Shown here piece after piece: positions 3,453 through 39,427 of a DNA stretch of 64,000 nucleotides. A program made the translations under genes and the position numbers. The notes under the pieces are model-generated. The model searched no databases, was not told where the DNA came from, and worked only from the letters and a program-made list of their open reading frames with translations. The DNA lies in the NCBI GenBank assembly GCA_951406725.2, contig OX597823.1:37324001-37388000 (forward strand), given 5' to 3'. This DNA is from Octopus vulgaris (taxonomy: Eukaryota). Every line of letters starts with the position of its first letter. Position 1 is the first letter of the stretch.

Positions 3453-3519
3453 TGTTATGTATACATGCATGTATGTATGTATTCATGTACGCATGCATGT
3501 ACCTATGTACGTATGTATT

Positions 3520-3570
<51 letters not shown>

Positions 3571-3616
3571 AAACAAGTAAAAAATAGAAAATGCTAAAAT
3601 AATTTTATAGTGAACA

Positions 3617-3660
3617 TTTCAGTACCGGTTTCGGTCATTTTGAGACCTTTTCAACTGTAA
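3617..3660 (-). ncRNA. Minimal type I hammerhead-like ribozyme (variant core), left-arm copy
   Basis: Exact reverse complement of 7425-7468. Confidence 0.6.
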
Positions 3661-3989
3661 CGATTAAATAATTAAATTTAGAAAAATTAGAAGAAAAGTT
3701 TTTTTAAAAGAATATTTCTATAGTAGTGTTCAGATTTAAGTGGCATTCTGCCTTTCTCTGACTCCCTTGTTTGCACTTGTGTGTTCGAGGTAGTTGTGAG
3801 TTCTTGGTAGGGTAGTAGAGGGAAGGCTGGTGAGGAAAGGGGGTGGGAGAATCTGGGAGTGCCCTGATGGTCGTATTTTGAATGGTCAGTGGCGGCTGGC
3901 AGTCTCAGTTCAATTCAGGATTGTTTATAGAATTAGCGTAGGTGTTATACTAAAAAACATTAGTGACAAACTTAAGGGGTAGGGGGTGG

Positions 3990-4262
3990 AGAAGAAGAAG
4001 AAGAAGAAGAAGAAGAAGAAGAAGAAGAAGAAGGAGAAGGAGAAGATGATGGTGATGGTGGTGATGATTATGACGACGATGATGATGATAACGATGATGA
4101 TGAAGAAGAAGAAGAAGAAGAAGAAGAAGAAGAAGAAGAAGAAGAAGAAGAAGAAGAAGAAGAAGAAGAAGGAGGAGAAGGAGAAGATGGTGGTGATGAT
4201 GGTGGTGATGATGATGACGCCGATGATGATGATAACGATGATGATGAAGAAGAAGAAGAAGA
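3990..4262. repeat. Compound (GAA)n/(GAT)n/(GGT)n microsatellite inside the PLE 3' region, mirrored at 6815-7092
   Basis: Directly visible. The unit is internally duplicated and the (GAA)n length differs slightly between arms. Confidence 0.9.
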
Positions 4263-5545
4263 AAAAACAGAGAAGGGAGAATATGAATGGGTGTAAATAT
4301 AGCTATGAAGGGGCTGATTAGTAATGGATTCTATGGAGTGTAGTATTTGTGTGTGTATATATATATTTTTCTTTTATTCTAAAGTTGAGGTATATTAATT
4401 GTTTGTCGTAGACCCGTTAAGAAGTGGCTTGTATTTTGTAATAAAGAGATTTTCTTTACTTATTCTTTGTCTCGAGGTTGTATCGTCCCTAAATTGGTAG
4501 AGGGGGAAAATTCTGAAGTTTGTGTTTTTTTGTTGGCGCAAGTATCTATGTGTTGGCTAAAAGCTATTTTTCTGTTTTGGGGAATTTTTATCTGGGATCT
4601 GTGCAGGGCCATTCGTTTACGCAAACCATTTTTTGTTTGGCCTATGTACTGCTCTTGACACCCGGAGCAGGTTAGTGAGTATATTAGGTTCTCCGAAGCA
4701 CATGTGAAGTTGCTTTTCACTGTAAACCGTTGTCCCTGTTTGAAGGAGAACTCAGAACCCTCGATTAGATAGTCGCATATCCCGCAATTGGGTCTTCCAC
4801 ATTTTTTTACTGTCGGCTTCTGTGTTGAAGAGTGAATTCGGGCTTGTGTAAGGAGACTTTTCATGGATCTAGGCTGTCTTTTGCTTTTTATGATCGTGTA
4901 TGTTTGGAGGATTGTGTTCATTCTGTGGTCTTTTTTTAGGAGGGGTATGTTGTGGAGGATGGTGTCGAAGGCTTCGTTATTGAGAGGGTTGTGTGTGGAG
5001 ATGTATGGTAAGGCTTTTGGTTGTAAGTTTTTCTTTGATTTGGGATGTCTCAGTTCCTTGATGTTAAGTTGAAGGGCACGTTGAATGCACTTGTCAATAA
5101 GTGAAGGTGGATAGTTCCTGGTGATTAGGGTATCTTTTAGTTCTTGTAGTCGTGTGTCTCTGGTGTTTGCGTTAGAGACTATAGTGCATATCCTTTTTGC
5201 TAGATTGAAGGGGATATTCATCCTGGTGTGTCTGGGGTGGCATGAATTGAATGGAAGATATTGCTTAGAGTCTGTAGGCTTATAGTATATGTCTGTTTCT
5301 ATTATATTATTAGCTTTCTTAATGAGGATATCGAGGAAGGGGAGTTGTTGTTGGCTATATTCCATCGTGAATTGGATGTTTACGTCCAGTCCGTTTAAAA
5401 TTTTCTGGAATTCTATGAGTTTTTCTATATTTTTATGCCAAAGGATGAAACAGTCATCTAGATATCTCTTCCAGTTGTTTTCTATGTAGATGGAGAAAGG
5501 GCTGCCATATCTTTCTAGAACCTTACGATACAGACTGATCTCTAG

Positions 5546-7518
5546 GTATCGTAAGGTTCTAGAAAGATATGGCAGCCCTTTCTCCATCTACATAGAAAAC
5601 AACTGGAAGAGATATCTAGATGACTGTTTCATCCTTTGGCATAAAAATATAGAAAAACTCATAGAATTCCAGAAAATTTTAAACGGACTGGACGTAAACA
5701 TCCAATTCACGATGGAATATAGCCAACAACAACTCCCCTTCCTCGATATCCTCATTAAGAAAGCTAATAATATAATAGAAACAGACATATACTATAAGCC
5801 TACAGACTCTAAGCAATATCTTCCATTCAATTCATGCCACCCCAGACACACCAGGATGAATATCCCCTTCAATCTAGCAAAAAGGATATGCACTATAGTC
5901 TCTAACGCAAACACCAGAGACACACGACTACAAGAACTAAAAGATACCCTAATCACCAGGAACTATCCACCTTCACTTATTGACAAGTGCATTCAACGTG
6001 CCCTTCAACTTAACATCAAGGAACTGAGACATCCCAAATCAAAGAAAACTTACAACCAAAAGCCTTACCATACATCTCCACACACAACCCTCTCAATAAC
6101 GAAGCCTTCGACACCATCCTCCACAACATACCCCTCTAAAAAAAGACCACAGAATGAACACAATCCTCCAAACATACACGATCATAAAAAGCAAAAGACA
6201 GCCTAGATCCATGAAAAGTCTCCTTACACAAGCCCGAATTCACTCTTCAACACAGAAGCCGACAGTAAAAAAATGTGGAAGACCCAATTGCAGGATATGC
6301 GACTATCTAATCGAGGGTTCTGAGTTCTCCTTCAAACAGGGACAACGGTTTACAGTGAAAAGCAACTTCACATGTGCTTCGGAGAACCTAATATACTCAC
6401 TAACCTGCTCCGGGTGTCAAGAGCAGTACATAGGCCAAACAAAAAATGGTTTGCGTAAACGAATGGCCCTGCACAGATCCCAGATAAAAATTCCCCAAAA
6501 CAGAAAAATAGCTTTTAGCCAACACATAGATACTTGCGCCAACAAAAAAACACCAAACTTCAGAATTTTCCCCCTCTACCAATTTAGGGACGATACAACC
6601 TCGAGACAAAGAATAAGTAAAGAAAATCTCTTTATTACAAAATACAAGCCACTTCTTAACGGGTCTACGACAAACAATTAATATACCTCAACTTTAGAAT
6701 AAAAGAAAAATATATATATACACACACAAATACTACACTCCATAGAATCCATTACTAATCAGCCCCTTCATAGCTATATTTACACCCATTCATATTCTCC
6801 CTTCTCTGTTTTTTCTTCTTCTTCTTCTTCATCATCATCGTTATCATCATCATCGGCGTCATCATCATCACCACCATCATCACCACCATCTTCTCCTTCT
6901 CCTCCTTCTTCTTCTTCTTCTTCTTCTTCTTCTTCTTCTTCTTCTTCTTCTTCTTCTTCTTCTTCTTCTTCTTCTTCTTCTTCATCATCATCGTTATCAT
7001 CATCATCGTCGTCATAATCATCACCACCATCACCATCATCTTCTCCTTCTCCTTCTTCTTCTTCTTCTTCTTCTTCTTCTTCTTCTTCTTCTTTCTCCAC
7101 CCCTACCCCTTAAGTTTGTCACTAATGTTTTTTAGTATAACACCTACGCTAATTCTATAAACAATCCTGAATTGAACTGAGACTGCCAGCCGCCACTGAC
7201 CATTCAAAATACGACCATCAGGGCACTCCCAGATTCTCCCACCCCCTTTCCTCACCAGCCTTCCCTCTACTACCCTACCAAGAACTCACAACTACCTCGA
7301 ACACACAAGTGCAAACAAGGGAGTCAGAGAAAGGCAGAATGCCACTTAAATCTGAACACTACTATAGAAATATTCTTTTAAAAAAACTTTTCTTCTAATT
7401 TTTCTAAATTTAATTATTTAATCGTTACAGTTGAAAAGGTCTCAAAATGACCGAAACCGGTACTGAAATGTTCACTATAAAATTATTTTAGCATTTTCTA
7501 TTTTTTACTTGTTTTTTC
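5546..7518 (+). mobile_element. Penelope-like element, inverted near-identical copy; right arm of palindrome
   Basis: ORFs 5490-6206 and 6154-6681 encode the same RT/EN peptide ending ENLFITKYKPLLN. The sequence is the reverse complement of 3567-5531. Confidence 0.95.
7425..7468 (+). ncRNA. Minimal type I hammerhead-like ribozyme (variant core) in PLE 3' repeat
   Basis: cag-UUGAAAA-GGUC(ucaaaau)GACC-GAAA-CCGG-UA-cug: stem I cag/ctg, 4-bp stem II, palindromic ACCGGU stem III, GUA site. Core differs from CUGANGA at positions 3 and 8. Confidence 0.6.
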
Positions 7519-7552
7519 ATATATATCAACTCGTGTGTTCCTTTTCACCCTT

Positions 7553-7583
<31 letters not shown>

Positions 7584-8131
7584 CTGTATATATATATATA
7601 TATATACATAAATGTATGTGTGCATGTAGGCATGTATGTATGTATGTATGTATCTATGTATGTATGTATGTATGTATGTATGTATGTATGTATGTATGTA
7701 TGTATGTATGTATATACGTATGTCTATACACATATACGCAGGTTTACATGCTCACCACTAGCACACATGTATACACACTCACGTTCACACGCCGCTTGGT
7801 GATCTGAAGAATTTATCATCGTAATTTGACATTTTACTCAACGCCAAAGTTAAACTCGTTTTTTTTTTCATGTTGACTACAAGATATGCTATGTATATTT
7901 GAAAATTAACAGCCGCATATTTAACTATATATATGTATATTACTATAATGATTACAACTACGCACAGAATACTATATAGATTACATTTGCAGATTCTGCA
8001 GAAGACAACTATTTTACATCGACATAGAAACGGAAACATAAGATGAATACATACATGTGTATGTATAAATGTATACGTATATACACATGAATGTATACAT
8101 ATATGCATGAATATATACATGTGTTTATATA

Positions 8132-8200
<69 letters not shown>

Positions 8201-9454
8201 ATATCTATATATATATATATATGTATACACATGTATATCTATATGCATATATGTATTCCTATATACATATATATGTCTATGCATGCATGTGTGTGCATGC
8301 ACCCATATTCCCACACGCACGCACTTGTCATTCAACAAAAGTGTTAATTTTCAAAGAAATTTAACATGAGAAAAGCCATTTTCAAAACTCAAACTTAATA
8401 AGCAACATCCATCAACAATAGAGAGGAAAAGGGAGTGAGTGAGTGAGTGAGTGAGTGAGTGAGTGAGTGAGTCAGTGAGTAAGTGAGTGAGGGTGGGATG
8501 GAGAGAGAGGAGGACAGAGAGGCATGCATTCACTGATGTACAGTTATGGTGGTGCTATGTACAATACTGCAATTATAACAAATGTTTAATGTGAATGTGG
8601 CTATGATGATGATCATGATGACGAGGAGGAGGAGGATGTTGTTGTAGGTGGTGGTTGTAGTGGCGGTGGTAGTGGCGTTGGTGGTGGTGGTGATGGTGGT
8701 GATAGTGGTGCAGGCAATGGCAGCTGCGGCGGCACTGCAACATACAGCAGAAAAGTTGCCCAGTTTTGTGAGCCAGAGAGTTTAGTAGAGCTTCTAAGTA
8801 AAGTTGTGAACAAGAGGGGCAACACCGAAAATTTAAGGCCTACAAAATGAATTCACATCTCACCGGACAGGAGCTTCTTGTGGAAGGGACGTATTTTGCT
8901 AGTCAGGCCGCTCATCTGATGCCAACGCCCCGCGACAGGCTGAAAATGAGGAAGGCTTACCTGAGATTGTGACATCTACAGACGATGAGCAGGTGTGATT
9001 CTCGTTTTTCTAGCAAGTTTCTCCACCGTTCGCTCTTTGACAAAACTAGAATTCTGAGTCAAGGAAAAACAGAGATTAGGGTTTGGTATTAGAATGTTGT
9101 AAGGTGCTCACAGTTCGGTGCAAGCCGGACAGTGTGATCAATGTTATGTAAACTATTCTATATAGGGAAGTCCCTCTTTAATATGGGAATCATTCTCTAG
9201 AGTACGGAATCATCCCTTTGACTGGTAAGCATGAATGATGTCATTCTGGGACATACTCTAAACAGTGCACAAAATCCACAGAACATTGCAAGAGACATTC
9301 AGCCCAGGAAACTATGAATAACTTCCAAAAACTGTTGCTCGGACAGTACCATAGAGTTACCACAGTGGAACTACGGTGGCACTATAGTGATACTATCGTA
9401 GTAAAACAGTGATACCTCTGTCATCTGGCCGATTCACAAATTCAACACAAAAGG

Positions 9455-12406: not shown

Positions 12407-13549
12407 TTAAAATTATTTACGTATTTTCTTAAGAAAATTTTTTGTCCATGTTGCGTGTGGAGTTTATGAATGAATGATTCAACAAGTAGAAAAATCTAAG
12501 GGGAGGTAATCGGTGATCGTTATTATTATGGACAGAGGGGATAATTTTTCATCTTTCAGTGGAGTGGAAAATGTACACAAAAATTCAAAAGCTAGAGTAG
12601 TGGGGAGAAATATGTACAATGATGGGTGTGTAATCGTGAATTAAAATATTATAGAGATCAAAGTTGGTTATGCGTGCATATTTACACGTGTTCTGTATTT
12701 TTCAATGAATAAATTTTCTTTATTTAAATTTTCTTGTATAGAAATTGTATCGTTTCACGGGTAGAAGGGGAAAACTATGAAATTTGGTTTGATGTTACCT
12801 GAACATCTGTCTATGCATTCACTTAAAGGAATCTGTCTGTATTGCAGGACCGAATCTGCTCTTTATGTAGAGTGGTTCTCCGTCTCAATGTCATACTCGT
12901 CTATCCTATATAGTGATGTCCTCAACTCTAGTAGGTTATTACATAAATTAGATTCTCAGAGGCACAAGTGAAGTTGGCTTAAATTGTGAACCTCTCTCCT
13001 TGTTTGAAGAGGAAATCCGAGCCTTCAATTAGGTTGGGACATATTCCACAGTTTGGACGTCCACATTTTTTAACCGTTGTTTTCGTGGTCGTGTAAGGCT
13101 TCGCATTTGTTAGATTAGTGTTGGTGGCTGCACTGGTATTGGAAAGAAAAGATTTTTTCCACAGGTCAAGATCCTTCCCAAATGAGGACTGCAGATTACT
13201 TTTTGTGGGGGCTCTGATTGGTGCTTGCAGGAATACCTGCAAGCCGCAAAAGAGTTAATTGGGGAGTAATGTAAGAGATTTATCGCTTCCATATGTATGT
13301 GTATAAATTTTGTTTCCTTTGTGATGGACTTCTAGTCCAATTTTTTGTATATATTTGTAAGAGGTTTAATACCTCTATATATGTTGTTTTTTAACGAATA
13401 ATGTTTTAGAAAAGCAAAGGGTCGGCGGCGCTTTCTGTCTTCTCCCATCTTTATCATCTTGTATAATTATCATTCGCTTCATTAATGTCTTGACCAACCC
13501 GCAGATCTACATATCCGTATACTGCTTTCATGGCAAATGATATAAAATA

Positions 13550-15097: not shown

Positions 15098-17300
15098 TAT
15101 ATAGGAGAATTTGTTTTTGAAAATGCACCTGAATTTTTAAAATTTGTAATTATTTTTAAATAAATTTATTTACATACATACCAAACTAGTTTCAAAATTT
15201 TTTTTTTATCAATGGTATAAACGTATAAGATTTCAAATATTTAAAATTGCGAAGTAGAAAACATGTTTAAATGTTCACAAAATTCAATTATGTCAAAAAT
15301 GATAGGCGAAGGATATAAAAAATATGCATCACCAAAAGTTCGGACATACTGAGTTAAGAGAGAGAAAAATAAGAAAATATGAGAGTAAAGAGATGGTTTT
15401 GCTACAGTTTCTGTCATCTTGCGTGTGATTCTGTTTTCCGTCGCGTACTGGGATTTTTGCTTGTAACGGTTTGTTTGGAATCAGTGTATTTACAATTTTT
15501 TTCCGTGAACGGATCTGATTTTTGATTCATTATAGTTCTGATATCTAATTCTTTCTAGTGGTCAAGTTTAGCATTCTGCCTGGTTGACTTCCCTGTGGAG
15601 ATAGTCATTGAACGTTCCAGCTGGTTGATTCTCTTAAAGGGTTTATTTGTTTTGTTTTGTTTTTTCCTGAGGGTTCGGTGCTGATCGGAGGCAAAATTTC
15701 ATTGGTCTAGAGATGGGTGACGTCAGCAACTGGTGTTTGTATTGTGCTATTGTATGGTGATTTGGAGTTGCGGTTTCGAAACATGAGTGGAAAGTTTTTG
15801 AATTATGTCTGTTGTATCTGGCTATCGTTTTTTTTTTTTTTAGAAATTTTGTTTTTTCTTCATTTTAGTGTTTTTCCCTCTTCCTAAAGGATATTTAGCT
15901 GTGGTTTACATTTTTATTGAGTATGCTTTCCTTATTCAATCAGAATTAGGCTGAAGTGTTTCCAGTGCATTGATAGAGAGGGAAGATTTGGTATTTCGGG
16001 ATTATGTTTGCAGGGTATTGGTCTAGGTGTTTGCTTACGGGAATTTTCCTCGTCATAGGGTCCTGGATTTTTTGCCTGTGTACTGTCAGTCTGTCCCTCA
16101 AGGTCAAACACCCACCACATTTCAGGACATAGATTAAGTTCTTCGATGCACAGGTGAAGTGATTGTTTTATGGTAAAAGTTTGACCTGATTTAAATTTAT
16201 ATGTTGAGCCCTCCAAGGTAGATGCAAGTCCCGCAATTTCAGCGGTTGCATGGCGTTGTATTTTTGATGGGTAATTTGGTGCTGATGAGTAGCCTTTTTA
16301 GGGATTGTGGTTCTTTTTTCATTCGCAGGTCATTCATAAGGAGGGGTATGTTTTGGTGGATGATGTATGCTTCCATGTTTATCGGACTGTGTGTTCATGC
16401 GTAAGATAAAGTTTTAAGTGTGTCATGGGATTTTCTTGTTTGCCGTAACTCTTGGATGTCTATCGTTTTTGCAAATTCTATTCCGTTTTTGATTTAACTA
16501 GCCAGATATTTTCTTGCTAGTAATATGTTTTTAAGTTCTTGAAGTTGTTTATCTCAGGTTTCGGGATTTGATGCAATCGCGCAAATTCTTCTTGCTAAGT
16601 TGAACGGTATATTTATTTTAGTGCGTTTTGAGCGGCAGGAAAAGAATAAAAGATATTATTATGAGTCCGTTGGTTTGAAGAAAATGTCAGTTTCAATTTC
16701 AGTATCAAAGATGTCCAGGAAGGGTAACTATTTGTGGCTGTATTCCATTGTAAGTTGGATACTGTCGTTAATACTGTTGATTATGTTTTTAAATTTTAAG
16801 TGTTGCTCAAGGCTATGCGACCACAGAATGAAACAATCATCCAGGTAGCGTTTCCATTTGGTAAGTATTTTTAGAAGTTGTCTCCAAATATCAGTCTAGC
16901 ATGTTCGTATATTTGGACTTCCAAGTATACCATGACAAAGTTAGCAAACGAAGGAGCTCCCCTTCACAGTGCCCGATTTTTGTCGATAGGTGTCCTCATT
17001 GAAGTTGAAGAACTTCTGTAGGATGAACTTTATTCCTTCAGTGATGAATCCTTTTCTGATTCCGTCAGAAATGTCGTCTAGGATTTTTCCATCCGGAATT
17101 GTATGGCTTTTATTCTGTATTCATGAAGAATCGAGGTGTAGGGATTTATTACCTCGAATGAAACCAGAAGGTAATCATTGCTAGTTTTGTTCAGAAGATG
17201 GTTTAAAAAGTCCAGATCATCCCTTATAAAGTTCGATATATGTTGGAAAATAGGTTTTAGGAGGACGTCAATAAAGTTACTTTAAAAGATGGAGTATCCC
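15090..17300 (-). mobile_element. Decayed Penelope-like element (RT plus GIY-YIG)
   Basis: Reverse strand ~16860-16640 reads KWKRYLDDCFILWSHS...IQLTMEYSHK*LPFLDIF. ~16250-16140 reads NCGTCIY..GSTYKFKSGQTFTIKQ. Many stops and frameshifts. Confidence 0.85.
15179..15217 (-). ncRNA. Degenerate minimal hammerhead in PLE 3' repeat
   Basis: uacca-UUGAUAA-aaaa..uuuu-GAAA-CUAG-UU-uggua: 5-bp stem I and palindromic ACUAGU stem III. Confidence 0.45.
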
Positions 17301-24369: not shown

Positions 24370-27300
24370 TAAACTTAGATAAACTTAGATATGTTTCGAC
24401 CAAAGATTGGTCCAGGCCATGTCTAACTTAATAGCACCGCCTGATAGGATTATTTGAATCCTGTTTAAGTCAAGTTTTGTTTATGGACCATTCAAGTAGT
24501 AAGTTTTTGTTGCAATGTACATGTATGCTGTGATCTTGAATTGGGCAGAGGACGTATGGCCCGTGGTCCCAGTCTTGGATGAACCTTGAAGCTAATGTTC
24601 AGGTCGTTTGGACAAAGTTGGCGGTACATTCTGCACATCGTACAAATGATGTACCGCTCACGGCGACGCTGGAGAGAGTAGAGTTTCAAGGCTTTAAGGT
24701 GATCCCAATAATCGTGAGCAGCCATGCCTTCAATTCGTTTAGTGAGTGCCCTCTGAGGTGATTCAATCCTCGAGATGTTTTGTCTTATATGGGGAGACCA
24801 CAGTGGGCAGCAGTATTCGAGGTGTGGCCGTACAAAGGAGGAGAAAAGTGGTATGATGATACCTTGTTCTCTGGACCGGAAAGTTCTTAAGATCCGGGAA
24901 CTCATCCTACGAGCTATATCGACCTTCTTGTTGATGTGTGCACTCCAACTGAGATCGTCATCAACAATTACACCCAGGTCTCTGATATTGTTAGAGGCTG
25001 TGAGCGGTTCCCCTGAAGGAAGAGAGTATGACTGTTTTAGTGAGGAATTTCTTCCAAAATGCATCAGCTCAAATTTTCCCTCGTTCAGTTGCATTTTGTT
25101 TCTGTCTGCCCATTGACTCACAGCATATAGATCAGACTGGAGTTCGGTCTGCTTCTTCATTGACGATTTGCTGGAGCTTAGTGTCATCAGCAAATATTTT
25201 CACTTTGCAGTAATGTACGACACTGGAAAGGTCGTTTATGTAAATTATGAAGAGTAGCGGACCAAAGACAGTCCCCTGGGGGACACCGCTGGTGATTTTT
25301 ACTGGGCTTGAGTGGACTCTATCAACTACAACATATTCGCCAGGAAATACTTAATCCAGTGTAGAACTTTTCCACGGATTCCAACATTTGCCAATTTTGA
25401 GAGTAGGATATTATGGTCTACCCTGTCGAACGCTTTACTGAAGTCAAGATATATGACATCAGAGTTCGAACCTGTTCCCAAGGCTTTCAGTACATCTTCA
25501 ATGTGGTGTAAGAGCTGTGTTTGACAGTCCCTCCCACAGCGAAAGCCACGCTGATTTGTATTTAGGAGTTTGTGGGTCTCCAGGAAGTCAGCTATCCTTG
25601 ATCTTAACACTCTTTCAAACACTTTAATGATGTGGGAGGTGAGTGAGATTGGGCGATAGTTGAGTGCGAGGGATCAGTTTCCCTGTTTGAAAACCGGGAT
25701 GACTGACTGGGATAGAAACTGTTTCGGTATATAACCTGCGTCTAACGAATTTCTCCAGAGGTTGGTCAGAGGGACTGCAAGTTGGTGTCTACATTCCTCC
25801 AGGAGACTAGCGGGGAATCTATCAGGGCCTACAGCAGAGTACTATTTGACCTCATTTATTGCTGCTATGATGTCAGTGGCAGTGAAGGTTATGTCTGAGA
25901 TTTTATGTTGGGAGTCAACTTCGTTCGCTTCTCTTACGTCAATATCAGTGGGAACACTAAAGACAGAGCAGTATTGTTTCTGCAGTATTTCTGCCATTTC
26001 TTTAGTATCGTGTTGGGGAATGTCATCAATCAATGGCCCAATGGGTGAGACAGTGGTTCTATGCTTATTTGCATAAGAATAGAACACTTTTGGGTTCTGT
26101 TTGATGTTTTTGATTACCCACTGTTCCTCCACAGCTCTTTGATTTTCAATGGAGGTTTTCATGTCGGTCTGCAGATGAAGTTTTTCCAGCTCTAGCCTTT
26201 TCATTGTTGTTGAATGTGGATGTTGTATGTGGGAATATTTTAATTGGTTGATTTTTTTGTTGAGTCTTTTGATGCGCCTGATGAGTGTTTTTTTTTCTTT
26301 TTAGGGAACCGGTTTCTGTTTGTGTTAGTAGATTTCGTGAGAGCGTGTTTAGAGCATGTACAAGTGACAATGTTTTCAAAGTGCTGCCATGCGGTCTCAA
26401 TATGGGTGGAATTGAGAGTAAAAGACCAGTCGATGTAAGACAGATCCTTTCTGATTGCTCCCCAGTTCGCTTTGTGGAAGTTTATGTTGTCAAATGAGTG
26501 CCATGGAGTGGGATTGGCTGGTTTGGTTTTTATATGTCGGGAATTAAAATTGCAGAGTACCATGTCGTGGTCTGAGAGGAGAGTTTTTTCAACTGAAATA
26601 CTGTGAACGAAGCTAGAGTGATTGGTCAATACCAGATCCAAGATCGTTTTATTCTGTCTCGTTGGTTCGAGCACTAGCTGAGTCAGGAAGTATTCATCCA
26701 TTAGATTAAAGAGCAGTTCTGCTGCTGCTCTATCTGATGTAGAGCATTTGCCTAACTTCAGAGTATTTGTGGGCCAGTTCACATGAGGGAGGTTAAAATC
26801 ACCCATCACGAGTATGTTTCCGGAGTTGAACTTCCGAAGGAAGGACTTGACTTTGCTAAGGCACTCTTCAAAGTACTTTAGAGGTGCTTGGGGAGGCCTG
26901 TAAAGACCAACAATGATTATGTCCTTGGCCTTGCTGAATAGTGATACAGATTCACAATAGCCATTGGAAAATATGTCCTTGGCATCAAGTGAAAAGGAGT
27001 CATGGATAAAGATGGCTATAAAGATCCCTTATTTCAGTCTGTGCGATCCGCACGAACGATGGTGAAATCTTTTATTTTCACCTCGGCGTCCATATGGGTG
27101 TTGTTCAGGTGAGTCTCGGTAAGGATAAAGAAAGGGTAGCAATGTGCCGTTTCGGCAAGCCAACTCTCTATGTATGGGATCTTCCATTTTTGGGCAATAA
27201 TTGATGGGTTGATGCAACGCACATTTAACAGGAATGTCGAGGTAAGAGAAGTTTGATGTTTGCATTGTTCTAAGTTATGTTTTATGTTGTTCAGTGGTAA

Positions 27301-27660
27301 CAATGTGGGTAGTTCTTGTATGAAGCTGTGTGTGTATGATTTTCTTGTTGGTAGTGGGTGTGTGGTCCTTGTGATTTGCATAGGTGGTTGCTGATAGCTC
27401 GTTGGATCTCCTAACTTAGGTCGGCCTTCATATTTTCTAGGTAAGTCAGTAAAAAGAGTTACCTCTTTGGTTTGCCACTTGGTCAGAGGATACATATTTC
27501 ATGTTTATGTTATTTGGTGTTATGGTTTTTTCATGGTTCTGTCTTCGTTGTTTGATTGTAGGAGGGGAAACGTGGTTGTATTTTGTTTTTGTTGTTGTCG
27601 TAGATCTCCTCTGTTGCTATTTATATTTATTTTGCGATCGTTTTGTTCAGTGTCAACGGA
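24370..27660 (-). mobile_element. CR1-group LINE, near-complete decayed ORF2 (APE endonuclease plus RT)
   Basis: EN motifs LTETHL, MGDFNLP, LDLVLT, SDH. RT motifs YLDFSKAFDRV, GVPQGTVFGPLLF, IFADDTK. C-terminal VRPHLEYC...LYSLQRRRERY. Tandem 10-mer (tctaagttta) 3' tail. Confidence 0.92.
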
Positions 27661-28181: not shown

Positions 28182-29149
<968 letters not shown>

Positions 29150-32474: not shown

Positions 32475-33150
32475 TCTTACTTCTTCTCTGAAGCGTTTTC
32501 CGGTTTGTCAGTTTTTTCTTTCACTTCCTTCGTAGCTTTTTGGGGAGGAGCCTCATTCTCTTTTTTATTTTTGGTACACTTGGAGAGAACATGGCCCCTC
32601 TCTCCACACTTGAAGCATCGGGGCCTACGTCCCTCCACGGCCACTCGCATTAATAGCCCTCTCTCCTACAAATACCCTATCGGGTAAATTTTCTAGGGTT
32701 TCATTCGAAGCTTGGACCACCATTTTTAATGTCTGGCCATTCCAGTTTATTGCGTTTTTCTTTTTCATCTGTAAAATGGACATCTCTTCCTCTACGTCGT
32801 AAATTATTGCCGCTGCTACCCACATAACTTTATATCCTGCTGGGATTTCTTCGACCGTAATTTTTGCAGTTCTGCGTCCCAAGTATGTGGGTAGCAGCAT
32901 TATATCCTTCTTTAGTGTCCTTGTTGACACTAAACAAGCCTCTTTGACTACGTTAGCCGTTTGGAACTGCGCTTCGTCAGTCGTGCTTCGTGTTCCACTG
33001 CTAGCGTAGCATACCTGATTCCATATTGGTGCCATGCACCTCTCCACCACTTCGTTCTTGGCTTCCATTATTCGCTTTTCCTACAGCCTGTAAATCTTAT
33101 ATACCACGGTTCTAGCATTAATTGCTTGTACCGTTTCAGGAAGCGGAAAC
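32475..33150 (-). pseudogene. gag-like/LINE ORF1-like protein with CCHC zinc knuckle (frameshifted)
   Basis: ORF 32625-33068 (LLPTYLGRRTAKITVEEIP) continues after a frameshift as RPRCFKCGERGHVLSKC (32630-32577). Confidence 0.7.
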
Positions 33151-33419
33151 AGTTTAGTGTCGCTGCTACTTTTTTAAATTAAATTTTGGAACTTGAACAG
33201 TTGTTCCGTTTCTATTTCTAACTCACTTAGATTTCCGCCCACTGCAGCCGAGAAACTTGGTTTTCCTGTGTTTCCTCATTATTACTTGTTAATCCTTTTC
33301 CCATCGCAGGAAAATCCTTTCGGCATGCAATATTAAATTCCATCACAAAAACTTTTTTTTTAAACTTTGTCACAAATAAAAAATTCACAAAAAATTAACC
33401 CAGTAACAAGTATAACAAA

Positions 33420-34750
33420 CACATGAATCATAAGGAAAAATAAGAGAATAGAGAGCACAATGAAGGAGGAGGTGGAGGAGTGTTTAAAGGAATTGAAAGA
33501 TGTGTCATTTTTCAAAAGAGGAAAGACATACGCGTCTGTAGAGATCACATTTGTATCGGAGGAGGCAGCACGGAAATACACCAGTAAGACGTTAACTGGA
33601 GGAAATTGGATACTCTTTCCCAATCAGCTGGATAGACGTCCAACGAGGATTAGGGTGGGTAGGATCCCGCCGGAAATAGAGCCGGTATGGGTAATGGTAG
33701 TAATTTTTTCTGGAACAGAAGTAAGGGCAGTTATGATAACCAGACCTCCAAAGTGCTATGAATGTGGCAATAGAGGTCACATTAGAAGAAGGTGTCCAGA
33801 AATAATAGAAAACATAGAAATCGAAACGCAAGAAGGCGTGATAGAGGAGAGGAAACAGACACAGGAAGAGGAACAGAGAGCTGATTTTGAGGAAGCTAAG
33901 TCAAGGAAGAGAGAATAGATGAGCTCATCGCCGAAAGTTGAACAAGGAAAGAAATATAAATTACAGGATCAAGTGGGATCACCGAGGAAAGAAGATAAAA
34001 GCAGAACATCAAGTGAACATACAGGCTCATAATTGCACAAACAGACAATTATTCACAGACGCATAAACACAAACATACATACACACGGAGGCATAGAAGA
34101 TAACACAGAGTTTCAGAAAACTAAAAGTACAGAACCTGAAAGTACAGACACACAGACACAACATGCAGACTTACAGTCACAAAAGCATGCAGACCCGCAG
34201 ACAAATAAACACACAGCCATACAGTCACAAAGAAATATAGAACAGACGCATGATAGTACAGGGTCAGAAAAACAAAAAAGAACAGACATACAGACGCAAG
34301 AGGTACACAGGAACGAACAGAATATATTTGATAACATATCGGTCGACACAAAAAATAGAAAGGTAAGTAACTAAAATGAAAGACATTGTTAAAGCGGACC
34401 TCTCGGAGGGTTACGACAAGGAGACAAGATGAGTTTTAATGGAAAAAGATAAGTATAGAAAGTTAAAAAGTTATATCCAATCAGAAAGTTATATCCTATC
34501 AGATATAAACCCACTGGGGCCCAAGCTGAATTTCGAACCCAACGCTCCAGTGGTGAACTATGAGGAAATTAAGAACTATATAAAATGGTAAGTAGAGTTT
34601 TATTTTGAAAAGAACTGTTGAAGACTATTGAAAAAATTGAAATAACGTAACCACCCCGGAGCGGGGATGAGGTGGCCGTTCCATCTTCATTGCATAATTT
34701 CACTATTCCATTCTTTCATGTGTTGATTGTCCCCGCATGAGTGTATTGTC
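33420..34750 (+). mobile_element. ORF1-only (gag-like, CCHC) retroelement remnant without RT
   Basis: ORF 33460-33918 has ILFPNQLDRRPTRIRVGRIP and KCYECGNRGHIRRRCP. A low-complexity tail with stops runs to ~34590, then a short UTR into (TATG)n. Confidence 0.65.
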
Positions 34751-34755
34751 CCATC

Positions 34756-35017
34756 TATGTATGTATGTACGTACGTACGTATGTATGTATGTATGTATGT
34801 ATGTATGTATGTATGTATGTATGTATGTATGTATGTATGTATCCTTTAGGATTTAGCGTTAGTTTTACTTTTTCCTGTGCATAATTCAAGCCAGTCCCTA
34901 ACAAAATGACATGGATCTTTTCAAGACAGGTCATGGGGATTGTGGTTATTTGAACTGTTTGATATATGCATATTTGTATGTACGCGCGCGTGTGCGTGTG
35001 TGTATTTGTGTGTGTGT
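34756..35017. repeat. Inverted duplication, left copy (partner 38463-38716)
   Basis: About 180 bp of non-simple sequence plus (TATG)n is the reverse complement of 38463-38716. One mismatch seen (ccctaac vs ccctgac). Confidence 0.9.
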
Positions 35018-38462: not shown

Positions 38463-38716
38463 ACACACACACAAATACACACACGCACACGCGCGCGTAC
38501 ATACAAATATGCATATATCAAACAGTTCAAATAACCACAATCCCCATGACCTGTCTTGAAAAGATCCATGTCATTTTGTCAGGGACTGGCTTGAATTATG
38601 CACAGGAAAAAGTAAAACTAACGCTAAATCCTAAAGGATACATACATACATACATACATACATACATACATACATACATACATACATACATACGTACGTA
38701 CGTACATACATACATA
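38463..38716. repeat. Inverted duplication, right copy (partner 34756-35017)
   Basis: See the left copy. ORFs 34940+ and 38540- share MWLFELFDICIFVCTRACACVYLCVC. Confidence 0.9.
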
Positions 38717-38885
38717 CATACATACATACGTACATACATACATACATACATACATAGGTACGTACGTACGTACATACATACATACATACATACATACATA
38801 CATACATACATACATACATACATACATACATACATACATACATACATACATACATACATACATACGTACGTACATACATACATAT

Positions 38886-39427
38886 ACCTGACATAATAAC
38901 TTGGGAGCGAGAAGAGAAACTGTGTACAGTTGTGGAAATCAGCTGCCCAGCAGATGTTAATGTAAAGCTAAAGATCAGCGAAAAAGAAAACACCTATGCT
39001 GAACTTTTGAGGAATCTACAGCTACTTTATCCAGATTACAAGTTCAGGTTTATACCTTTAATTATTGGGGCATTGGGATATGTAACGCACTGCCTAAATA
39101 CCAATCTTGAGAAATTAGTCTCCTCAAAGCCAGAAAAGAGAAAGCTCATTCGAAGACTACAGATCCCAGTCATCACTGGAACTGTAAAAATCTGCAAAAC
39201 TTTCCAGAAGTTTATCATTTAAGTAAACATGAATATGTCTAGACATGCAACTATATGCATGAGAATATATACATAAAAGAAAACATATAAATCTGCACAT
39301 GTACATACATACAAAAATACCCTGTTGATGTTGAAATTCCAATGAAAGCACTTTGGATCTAGGTTAGAAACGGCTTTTTCTCTATTGACAAGAAATCTTG
39401 AAATAAAAGTGAATAATGACATACATA
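38886..39427 (+). mobile_element. REL-endonuclease LINE 3' end inserted in (CATA)n
   Basis: PDIITWEREEKLCTVVEISCPADVNVKLKISEKENTYAELLRNLQLLYPDYKFRFIPLIIGALG...GTVKICKTF. The UTR ends aataaaa...catacata. Confidence 0.85.

What the first reader, a model, noticed from the sequence alone, without database searches (positions are those of the whole stretch)
3567..7518. Near-perfect 3.95-kb palindrome made of one Penelope-like retroelement folded back on itself
Seen: two ~1.97-kb arms are reverse complements around a 14-nt loop (5532-5545). The differences I found are homopolymer and (GAA)n length changes plus one substitution (CGI vs CRI). Both arms stop at the element 3' end and abut TA repeats, and the outer flanks are unrelated. 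Known: PLEs often carry short inverted partial LTRs at their 5' end. Inference: the whole 5'-truncated cDNA was copied back to the 3' end, giving a tail-out palindrome. A fold-back read artefact would be expected to continue into flanking DNA. Any read-through transcript would form a ~2-kb dsRNA, a potential siRNA/piRNA source or ADAR substrate, with a hammerhead motif near its 3' end in either direction.
Basis: partly seen in the sequence, partly recalled or inferred. Interest (0 to 1): 0.85.

Follow-up and report, generated by a model that had tools for sequence, protein, structure and literature searches.

The report
Penelope retroelement inserted as head-to-head palindrome
A 4-kb DNA palindrome made of two head-to-head truncated copies of a young Penelope-like retroelement, a known habit of these elements that is common in this genome; only one arm carries the element's 35-base tail, which suggests that both ends of the cut target likely primed copying of one RNA.

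Summary
Palindrome confirmed: arms 3559-5531 and 5546-7526, 14-nt loop, 1 substitution and 6 indels. The centre is a native 5-bp inverted repeat of the element. One correction matters: the arms do not end alike. Only the right arm carries the 35-nt PLE 'tail', and the tail-less left arm owns the loop, so fold-back of one cDNA or one read cannot make it. The element is a young Neptune-type PLE with 1,285 exact copies of its 3' motif. In a 78-locus sample, 34 are head-to-head inverted. All 52 same-family inverted loci scorable at both ends have the tail on exactly one arm. Arms share one haplotype (20 of 2,057 discordant sites against about 490 expected), and either arm can be longer. A second 4-kb near-perfect palindrome lies at C10:30.03 Mb. 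Best reading (inferred): both ends of a cut (TA)n target prime reverse transcription at the element's two start sites on one template, and the cDNAs join by microhomology. The architecture, one-sided tail and siRNA consequence are already described for PLEs; the strict counts were not found in print. No read support for this junction was obtained.

The parts
3461..3566 (.). left target flank: (TATG)n/(TA)n microsatellite; the element end is ambiguous inside the TA run
3559..5550 (-). left arm: 5'-truncated PLE copy, tail-less end (start site A), includes the loop and both halves of the native 5-bp inverted repeat
3614..3663 (-). minimal hammerhead-like motif, U3-A8 core variant, left copy
   Evidence: mirror of the right copy in the arm alignment
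4398..5550 (-). truncated ORF: RT from just upstream of YLDD, CX4CxxC linker, GIY-YIG endonuclease with CCHH; 1-nt frameshift near 4532
5527..5550 (+). centre: GATAC (5527-5531), 14-nt loop (5532-5545), GTATC (5546-5550); native micro inverted repeat, 5-nt junction overlap; the junction 20-mer is unique in G000
5546..7525 (+). right arm: 5'-truncated copy of the same haplotype; 1-nt deletions near 6044 and 6135 against all laid contigs
6175..6175 (+). rare T shared by both arms (mirror at 4900): 3 exact hits in G000 against 564 for C
6292..6292 (+). only substitution between the arms (G>A at a CpG, right arm only; mirror at 4783)
6814..7094 (+). (TTC)/(TCA) tract in the 3' non-coding part; mirror at about 3991-4262; differs by 9 nt between the arms
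7422..7471 (+). minimal hammerhead-like motif (TTGAAAA core, stem II GGTC/GACC, GAAAC-CG-GTA); cleavage not tested
   Evidence: variant described in PMC4209133
7526..7560 (+). 35-nt PLE tail (start site B), on the right arm only
7561..7720 (.). right target flank: (TA)n/(TATG)n microsatellite

Best explanation
This is one very recent insertion of a Neptune-type Penelope-like element into a (TA)n tract, in which both ends of the cut target likely primed reverse transcription of the same template RNA, one at the tail-less start site and one at the site 35 nt downstream, and the two truncated cDNAs likely joined head-to-head through a native 5-bp inverted repeat. SHOWN: inverted structure, TA target, tail on one arm only, one haplotype in both arms, 5-nt overlap at a native GATAC/GTATC, and the same grammar in 52 of 52 scorable same-family loci with either arm the longer. 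INFERRED: double-strand cutting by a dimer, one start site per target end, one RNA molecule rather than two from one source, the second RT trailing and displacing the first cDNA (which would explain near-equal ends), and fill-in by host repair. The core claim (both ends primed, one template haplotype) I put at about 0.8; the full version, with two long cDNAs, at 0.5. The product is 5'-truncated within RT and cannot encode the full protein. Read-through from either flank would fold into about 2 kb of dsRNA (not tested).
For: Tail on exactly one outer end in 33 of 33 scorable inverted loci of the C1 sample (32 independent; L103/L104 look duplicated) and 19 of 19 further loci including the window; for 32 of 32 the chance is at most 2e-10 if ends were independent. 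Orientation: 20 minus/plus neighbours against 1 plus/minus among the first 100 motif hits. Tail-less arm longer in 19, tailed arm longer in 8, within 25 nt in 9 of 36 hand-curated loci, so neither arm is always a copy of the other's end. Discordance at family-polymorphic sites: 12 of 1,159 in 30 loci against 282 expected, 8 of 898 in 9 further loci against 208; window 0 of 147 against 27. Overlap of 4 nt or more at 4 of 20 clean junctions (window excluded) against 1.6% for random ends, p=2e-4. Both start sites end in TA runs that match the target. In vitro, the anole PLE protein cuts and extends both target strands, starts RT at two sites that bracket the tail, and is predicted to be a dimer (PMC11167929). 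In four loci (L048, L091, L113, C8:67.12 Mb) copy-back after a hairpin ran only 13-78 nt before jumping to the other arm, which argues against a 1.9-kb copy-back.
Against: No read or contig was seen across the centre or across both flanks. Same haplotype does not prove one RNA molecule: one dominant source locus per cell gives the same result. Frangieh et al. found no difference in start site between top and bottom strand and no homology between start site and target, so the one-site-per-end rule is not shown in vitro, and their element is of another clade. Those same four hairpin loci show that cDNA snap-back does occur, and in near-symmetric loci the tail-less arm reaches further in 7 of 8 with unequal ends, as snap-back also predicts. 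One locus (L059) has two tail-less ends, though its partner arm is a 79%-identical relative. Post-insertion conversion between arms could add to the haplotype match.
Confidence: 0.5

Rival explanations
1. Hybrid: both target ends were primed, but the tail-less cDNA snapped back at GATAC/GTATC and was copied along itself for most of the 2 kb, then closed onto a short tail-bearing cDNA at the right end.
For: The strand joined to the left flank has exact snap-back geometry. Its 3' end is paired in the predicted DNA fold, and only 39 of 2,900 positions offer a 5-bp stem with a 3-20 nt loop. Both arms share a rare T. Hairpin junctions in L048, L091, L113 and C8:67.12 Mb. Snap-back of cDNA 3' ends is documented for R2 insertions (PMC11371274), and self-priming was proposed for PLE junction palindromes (PMC3846280).
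Against: Observed copy-backs that can be delimited are short (13-78 nt). The bare 5-bp stem is weak (-0.3 kcal/mol). Rare variants shared by both arms also occur in strongly asymmetric loci, and one tested variant was shared with a second locus, so it came from the template.
Confidence: 0.3
2. Two separate insertions, or two RNAs from different sources, landed back to back at one site.
For: Double insertion makes tandem and inverted dimers of other TEs (PMC5932611). L059 pairs a young copy with a diverged relative, and L053 abuts an older copy at the same TA tract.
Against: No target sequence between the arms in the window; a TA run at the junction was seen only in L045 among the junctions printed. 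Same haplotype in both arms; strict orientation; one-tail rule although only 8 of 42 scorable simple insertions carry the tail.
Confidence: 0.07
3. One reading: one cDNA folded back and was copied to the end; the left arm lost its tail later by slippage between TA runs.
For: The tail lies between two TA-rich runs, so a deletion is possible. Snap-back geometry fits.
Against: Tail-less ends are the normal primary end (34 of 42 scorable simple insertions). No tail/tail inverted locus was found among 52. The locus is very young (1 substitution in 1,622 columns).
Confidence: 0.05
4. Artefact: a fold-back read or amplification chimera, joined by the assembler to another copy of a high-copy repeat.
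For: The junction is unique and was not seen in the listed contigs of 4 runs. Fold-back chimeras use short inverted repeats (recalled). The 1-nt indels look like long-read consensus errors.
Against: A fold-back would run into the mirrored flank and could not add a tail. The locus obeys the same grammar as 51 others, including old, diverged ones. It lies inside a 118-Mb contig.
Confidence: 0.05
5. A pre-existing inverted source locus was transcribed and retrotransposed as a whole.
For: PLEs can carry neighbouring sequence between pLTRs (PMC3846280).
Against: It predicts repeated junctions. The window's junction occurs once in 2.8 Gb, and all junctions printed differ (L103/L104 aside).
Confidence: 0.03

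Closest known systems
Endonuclease-positive Penelope-like elements with an inverted 5'-truncated copy and one-sided tail (Craig et al. 2021, PMC8557442 Fig. 2; Arkhipova et al. 2013, PMC3846280)
   Same: Head-to-head inverted truncated copy, 30-40 nt tail often at one end only, palindromes at the inverted junction, microsatellite targets, partial tandems.
   Different: Here both arms are about 2 kb and end within 19 nt of each other. The one-tail rule is counted (52 of 52) and either arm may be the longer. Published explanations in the passages read were self-priming or endonuclease resolution, not priming from both target ends.
Neptune/Nematis clades of PLEs
   Same: [quoted passage not shown]
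   Different: No phylogeny against named references was built, so Neptune versus Nematis is not settled. Three full-length copies show an extra 446-codon frame overlapping the RT frame.
Poseidon of the green anole, in vitro (Frangieh et al. 2024, PMC11167929)
   Same: Two internal RT start sites that bracket the tail, both strands cut and extended, AT-rich targets, hammerhead upstream of the start sites.
   Different: Different clade. Its start sites are not homologous to the target, whereas here both end in TA runs that match it. Inverted products were not reported in the two parts read.
Rearranged Penelope copies with long inverted repeats in transgenic Drosophila melanogaster (PMC3681739)
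   Same: Long inverted repeats arise during active transposition, and siRNAs map to the inverted regions.
   Different: Small RNAs were not examined here.
L1 twin priming (recalled, Ostertag and Kazazian 2001; not read)
   Same: The second target end primes on the same RNA; products are joined by microhomology.
   Different: In L1 the second primer anneals far upstream and gives an inversion without duplication. Here the second site is 35 nt away, so the same stretch is copied twice.

Membership tests
EN+ Penelope-like element | RT followed by C-terminal GIY-YIG endonuclease | tested here: met
   RVT_1 E 3.5e-8 and GIY-YIG E 3.8e-4 (21.1 bits, under the 22.6 cut-off) in a 784-aa copy; GIY-YIG 23.8 bits in the window's right arm; homologues carry both domains
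EN+ Penelope-like element | CCHH motif with two cysteines between GIY and YIG | tested here: met
   LIYSLTCSGCQEQYIG with two downstream histidines, read from the translation; definition in PMC8557442
EN+ Penelope-like element | Partial tandems forming pseudo-LTRs | tested here: met
   4,386-nt unit repeated in tandem at C2:45.34 Mb, C4:45.97 Mb and C8:52.21 Mb
EN+ Penelope-like element | Optional 30-40 nt tail | tested here: met
   35-nt tail at 7526-7560, present or absent across loci
EN+ Penelope-like element | Minimal hammerhead in the pLTR | tested here: inconclusive
   Motif fits the U3-A8 minimal variant by inspection (PMC4209133); fold z -0.81; Rfam HH9 below gathering score; cleavage not testable
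EN+ Penelope-like element | RT groups with PLE/telomerase RTs in a tree | not tested
Neptune/Nematis clade | CX2-5CxxC linker between RT and endonuclease | tested here: met
   CGRPNCGIC in the translation; definition
Canonical PLE inverted insertion | Inverted 5'-truncated copy directly adjacent at the 5' end, tail on one side | tested here: met
Canonical PLE inverted insertion | Target-site duplication | tested here: inconclusive
   Both ends lie in (TA)n, so a duplication cannot be delimited; no empty site was found
Single-molecule fold-back (cDNA or read) | The copied arm holds nothing that the template arm lacks | tested here: not met
   The loop-owning arm lacks the 35-nt tail of the other arm
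Fold-back read artefact | Mirror continues into the flank; junction confined to one read | not testable with these tools
   Flanks are not mirrored; raw long reads were not available

The most novel reading that the evidence does not exclude
Penelope-like elements routinely insert by two-ended reverse transcription: a dimer primes one RNA from both ends of the cut target, one end at each of the two start sites that bracket the tail. This would explain the long-known inverted copies and one-sided tail in one step, and would mean that about 40% of this family's insertions seed their own hairpin RNA, with long arms lost over time.
Probability: 0.5. Interest if true: 0.65.

Novelty: new member of a known kind. 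Interest (0 to 1): 0.45.

Why it matters
The locus itself is an extreme but ordinary product of a known habit. Its value is as a pointer to a young, high-copy family whose hundreds of near-identical insertions put numbers on an open question that Craig et al. name: how PLEs form tandem and inverted structures and the tail. The one-tail rule, the shared haplotype and the either-arm-longer pattern give sharp predictions for the existing in vitro system. About 400 inverted loci (extrapolated from 34 per 100 motif hits to 1,285 hits) would also be a large built-in source of hairpin RNA, and a hazard for assemblies.

Tried and rejected
Read support: 24 runs listed, all kept as contigs; 4 laid on 5490-6700. 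Listed contigs at the centre follow the native upstream sequence; none listed spans the junction, but 2,373 pieces were not shown, about 80% of X11 was read, hairpins amplify poorly and a young insertion may be absent from other individuals. Inconclusive both ways. In X11 the rare T and A letters are left with depth of about 100 out of 462,000 and 69,000; which locus they come from cannot be told. Empty site: the right flank is unique and the old repeat in the left flank does not run on into it in 5 copies checked. Rare shared T as proof of copy-back: rejected, since shared private variants run at about 1.2-1.4 per kb in all inverted loci and 1 of 2 further variants tested genome-wide was shared with a second locus; the third T hit is in an 85%-diverged copy. 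Arm-to-arm gene conversion: not needed. Shared private variants are equally frequent in short and long arms (6 in 4,176 against 27 in 22,030 columns, p=0.64), while one-arm variants are 6-fold rarer in long arms (29 against 25, p=2e-10), so long-armed loci are simply younger; L136 (9 shared, 1 one-arm) is an unexplained outlier. A-to-I signature in shared variants: mixed changes by eye, not pursued. Bacterial promoter scan: not applicable. Earlier scan notes: none. Rows dropped from the one-tail count: L092 and C2:45.34 Mb (far end broken off), L143 (arms not contiguous), L059 (partner is a diverged relative; both ends tail-less). Complex loci were left out of the arm-length table (36 of 52 used). 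Host gene context and transcription across the locus were not tested. Literature searches found no paper that counts tail asymmetry or proposes two-ended priming for PLEs; Arkhipova 2006, Evgen'ev and Arkhipova 2005 and Pyatkov 2002 were not read, and the supplements of PMC11167929 (Fig. S2 on genomic tails) were not seen and may bear on novelty.
Full report
OBSERVATION. The window holds one long inverted match, 3559-7526, 99.05% identical, with a perfect 503-nt inner pair around 14 nt at 5532-5545. The arms differ by five 1-nt indels, one 9-nt (GAA)3 indel and one substitution (4783/6292). The window is G000:C10:37,324,001-37,388,000 in a 2.8-Gb assembly of 227 contigs; the host species was not determined. 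The right flank is single-copy, the left flank is part of an old repeat, and they are not mirrored.

THE ELEMENT. The arms encode the end of an RT (YLDD), a CX4CxxC linker and a GIY-YIG endonuclease with CCHH. A longer natural copy gives a 784-aa frame with RVT_1 and GIY-YIG matches and 494 homologues. By the definitions in PMC8557442 (passages) this is a C-terminal-endonuclease PLE of Neptune/Nematis type; no tree was built. The unit is 4,386 nt and occurs in partial tandems. A 33-nt 3' motif has 1,285 exact copies. The motif lies in a minimal hammerhead with the U3-A8 core variant described in PMC4209133 (part 1 of 4 read); Rfam support is below threshold and activity is untested.

THE CENTRE. 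In all 26 other loci the element reads GATAC, 14 nt, GTATC at this place, so the palindrome's centre is a native 5-bp inverted repeat, and the loop is element sequence in the left arm's orientation. The junction 20-mer occurs once in the genome.

THE ENDS ARE NOT ALIKE. The left arm ends at CATATATA and runs into (TA)n. The right arm carries 35 nt more element sequence (7526-7560) before (TA)n. This is the PLE tail. The strand with snap-back geometry is the one joined to the left flank, and it has no tail to be copied. A tail-primed cDNA, on the other hand, would carry the loop in the other orientation. So neither a single cDNA nor a single read folding back can give this structure.

THE FAMILY DOES THIS ROUTINELY. 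The first 100 motif hits on C1 form 78 loci. Twenty are minus/plus pairs within 6 kb, against one plus/minus neighbour and two same-strand tandems. Fetching all 78 showed 14 more inverted loci, 34 of 78 in all, plus L059, whose partner arm is a 79% relative. Only 5.5 kb upstream of single hits was read, so this is a lower bound. The tail is on exactly one outer end in 33 of 33 scorable loci (L092 not scorable; L103/L104 look duplicated). It is also so in 19 of 19 further inverted loci met in other searches, the window among them. L059 has two tail-less ends; L143 and C2:45.34 Mb were dropped. Of 43 simple insertions, 34 are tail-less, 8 tailed and 1 interrupted. In 36 loci with simple arms, the tail-less arm reaches further 5' in 19, the tailed arm in 8, and 9 end within 25 nt (hand-curated table). 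A second near-perfect 4-kb palindrome lies at C10:30,034,681-30,038,705, with a different junction about 20 nt further 5' and a 4-nt overlap; a third, with a 107-nt spacer, at C8:67.12 Mb.

ONE TEMPLATE. At family-polymorphic sites the two arms of a locus disagree at 12 of 1,159 comparisons in 30 loci (282 expected between loci) and 8 of 898 in 9 more (208 expected). The window shows 0 of 147. Both window arms share a T found in only one other, 85%-diverged copy, against 564 hits for C. Such shared private variants occur at about 1.2-1.4 per kb in short and long arms alike, so they look template-borne and need no gene conversion; long-armed loci carry about 6-fold fewer one-arm changes and are younger. 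One substitution in 1,622 columns makes this insertion very recent.

JUNCTIONS. Most are blunt or overlap by 1-2 nt; 4 of 20 clean junctions other than the window's overlap by 4 nt or more, against 1.6% at random. Four loci show a hairpin, a copy-back of 13-78 nt and a jump to the other arm (L048, L091, L113, C8:67.12 Mb). This shows that cDNA ends do snap back, as seen for R2 (PMC11371274, passages), and that such copy-backs are short where they can be measured.

MECHANISM. For the anole PLE, purified protein cuts and extends both target strands, starts RT at two internal sites that bracket the tail, and is predicted to dimerise (PMC11167929, parts 1-2 of 4 read). The genomic pattern here fits if each end of a cut (TA)n target takes one of the two sites on one RNA. 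Both sites end in TA runs that match the target. One RNA has one site of each kind, which gives the one-tail rule and the shared haplotype. Independent truncation gives either arm longer. A trailing second RT, or a common RNA break, gives near-equal ends as here. The ends then join at microhomology and are filled in. The steps from dimer cutting to fill-in are inferred. For this locus I put two long cDNAs at 0.5 and snap-back of the tail-less cDNA closed onto a short tailed cDNA at 0.3; sequence alone cannot separate them. Double insertion (0.07), pure snap-back with later tail loss (0.05), artefact (0.05) and copying of an inverted source (0.03) fit poorly.

WHAT WAS NOT SHOWN. No read spans the junction or the flanks: only contigs were on offer, and the result is inconclusive. 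No empty site, target duplication, transcript, small RNA or editing was tested or found.

COMPARISON AND NOVELTY. The architecture is known: an inverted 5'-truncated copy adjacent to the 5' end with a 30-40 nt tail often at one end (PMC8557442); head-to-head repeats with junction palindromes read as self-priming (PMC3846280, passages); paired hammerheads on opposite strands (PMC4209133); and long inverted Penelope copies that yield siRNAs (PMC3681739, passages). PMC5932611 (passages) covers double insertion in other TEs; bioRxiv 10.64898/2026.07.22.740005 (term search only) had nothing on this. L1 twin priming and fold-back chimeras are recalled, not read. Nine searches found no count of tail asymmetry and no two-ended priming model for PLEs, but several older PLE papers and the Frangieh supplements were not seen.

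VERDICT. Interest 0.45; 0.65 if two-ended priming on one RNA is confirmed.

Noticed in passing
L184 (G000:C10:30034681-30038705): Second near-perfect 4-kb palindrome of the same family, 98.3% self-inverted, tail-less arm owns the loop, 4-nt overlap.
   Followed up: partly
window 5527-5550, L184, L031, L118: Four long arms end within about 25 nt of the same place in the RT gene (1,955-1,978 nt from the 3' end): a possible stall or RNA break hotspot, with ascertainment bias from the queries used.
   Followed up: no
L071, L083, L093, L094, L096-L098, L101, L114, L115: Ten simple insertions have 5' ends 223-242 nt upstream of the tail-less end, probably the 5' end of the transcript in the pseudo-LTR.
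   Followed up: no
L032:4918-6256 and 6195-8547; same in L034/L035 and L036/L037: Full-length units show a 446-codon frame with no Pfam match overlapping the RT frame by about 60 nt in three loci: a second ORF, a frameshift or an intron.
   Followed up: partly
L136 (C2:126.515-126.520 Mb): Both arms share 9 private substitutions and a 16-nt deletion but differ at 1 site; a lost source lineage or arm-to-arm conversion.
   Followed up: partly
L045: Perfect pseudo-LTR palindrome with a (TA)8 run at its centre.
   Followed up: no
L183 and L135: Two inverted loci share two otherwise unseen variants, a small source lineage.
   Followed up: yes
window 15919-17281 and 12680-13065 (-): Two older, diverged PLE relics (35-62% protein identity to the young element).
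   Followed up: no
window 24495-27498 (-): Broken LINE with AP-endonuclease domain (PF14529) and RT-like frames.
   Followed up: partly
window 32628-33915: Gag-like or ORF1-like frames on opposite strands, one with a zinc knuckle (PF00098).
   Followed up: no
window 34737-35017 and 38463-38743: 281-nt inverted repeat, 95-98% alike, 3.4 kb apart, each ending in (TATG)n; the right copy adjoins an endonuclease-like frame at 38890-39219 with no Pfam match. Possibly an inverted insertion of another retroelement family.
   Followed up: no
window 28570-28926 (+): Transposase-like helix-turn-helix remnant after an (ATA)n tract; weak Pfam matches only.
   Followed up: no
runs X1-X19: About 75-84% of the element's sampled words occur in runs under eight organism labels: close relatives, mislabelled runs or recent transfer.
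   Followed up: no
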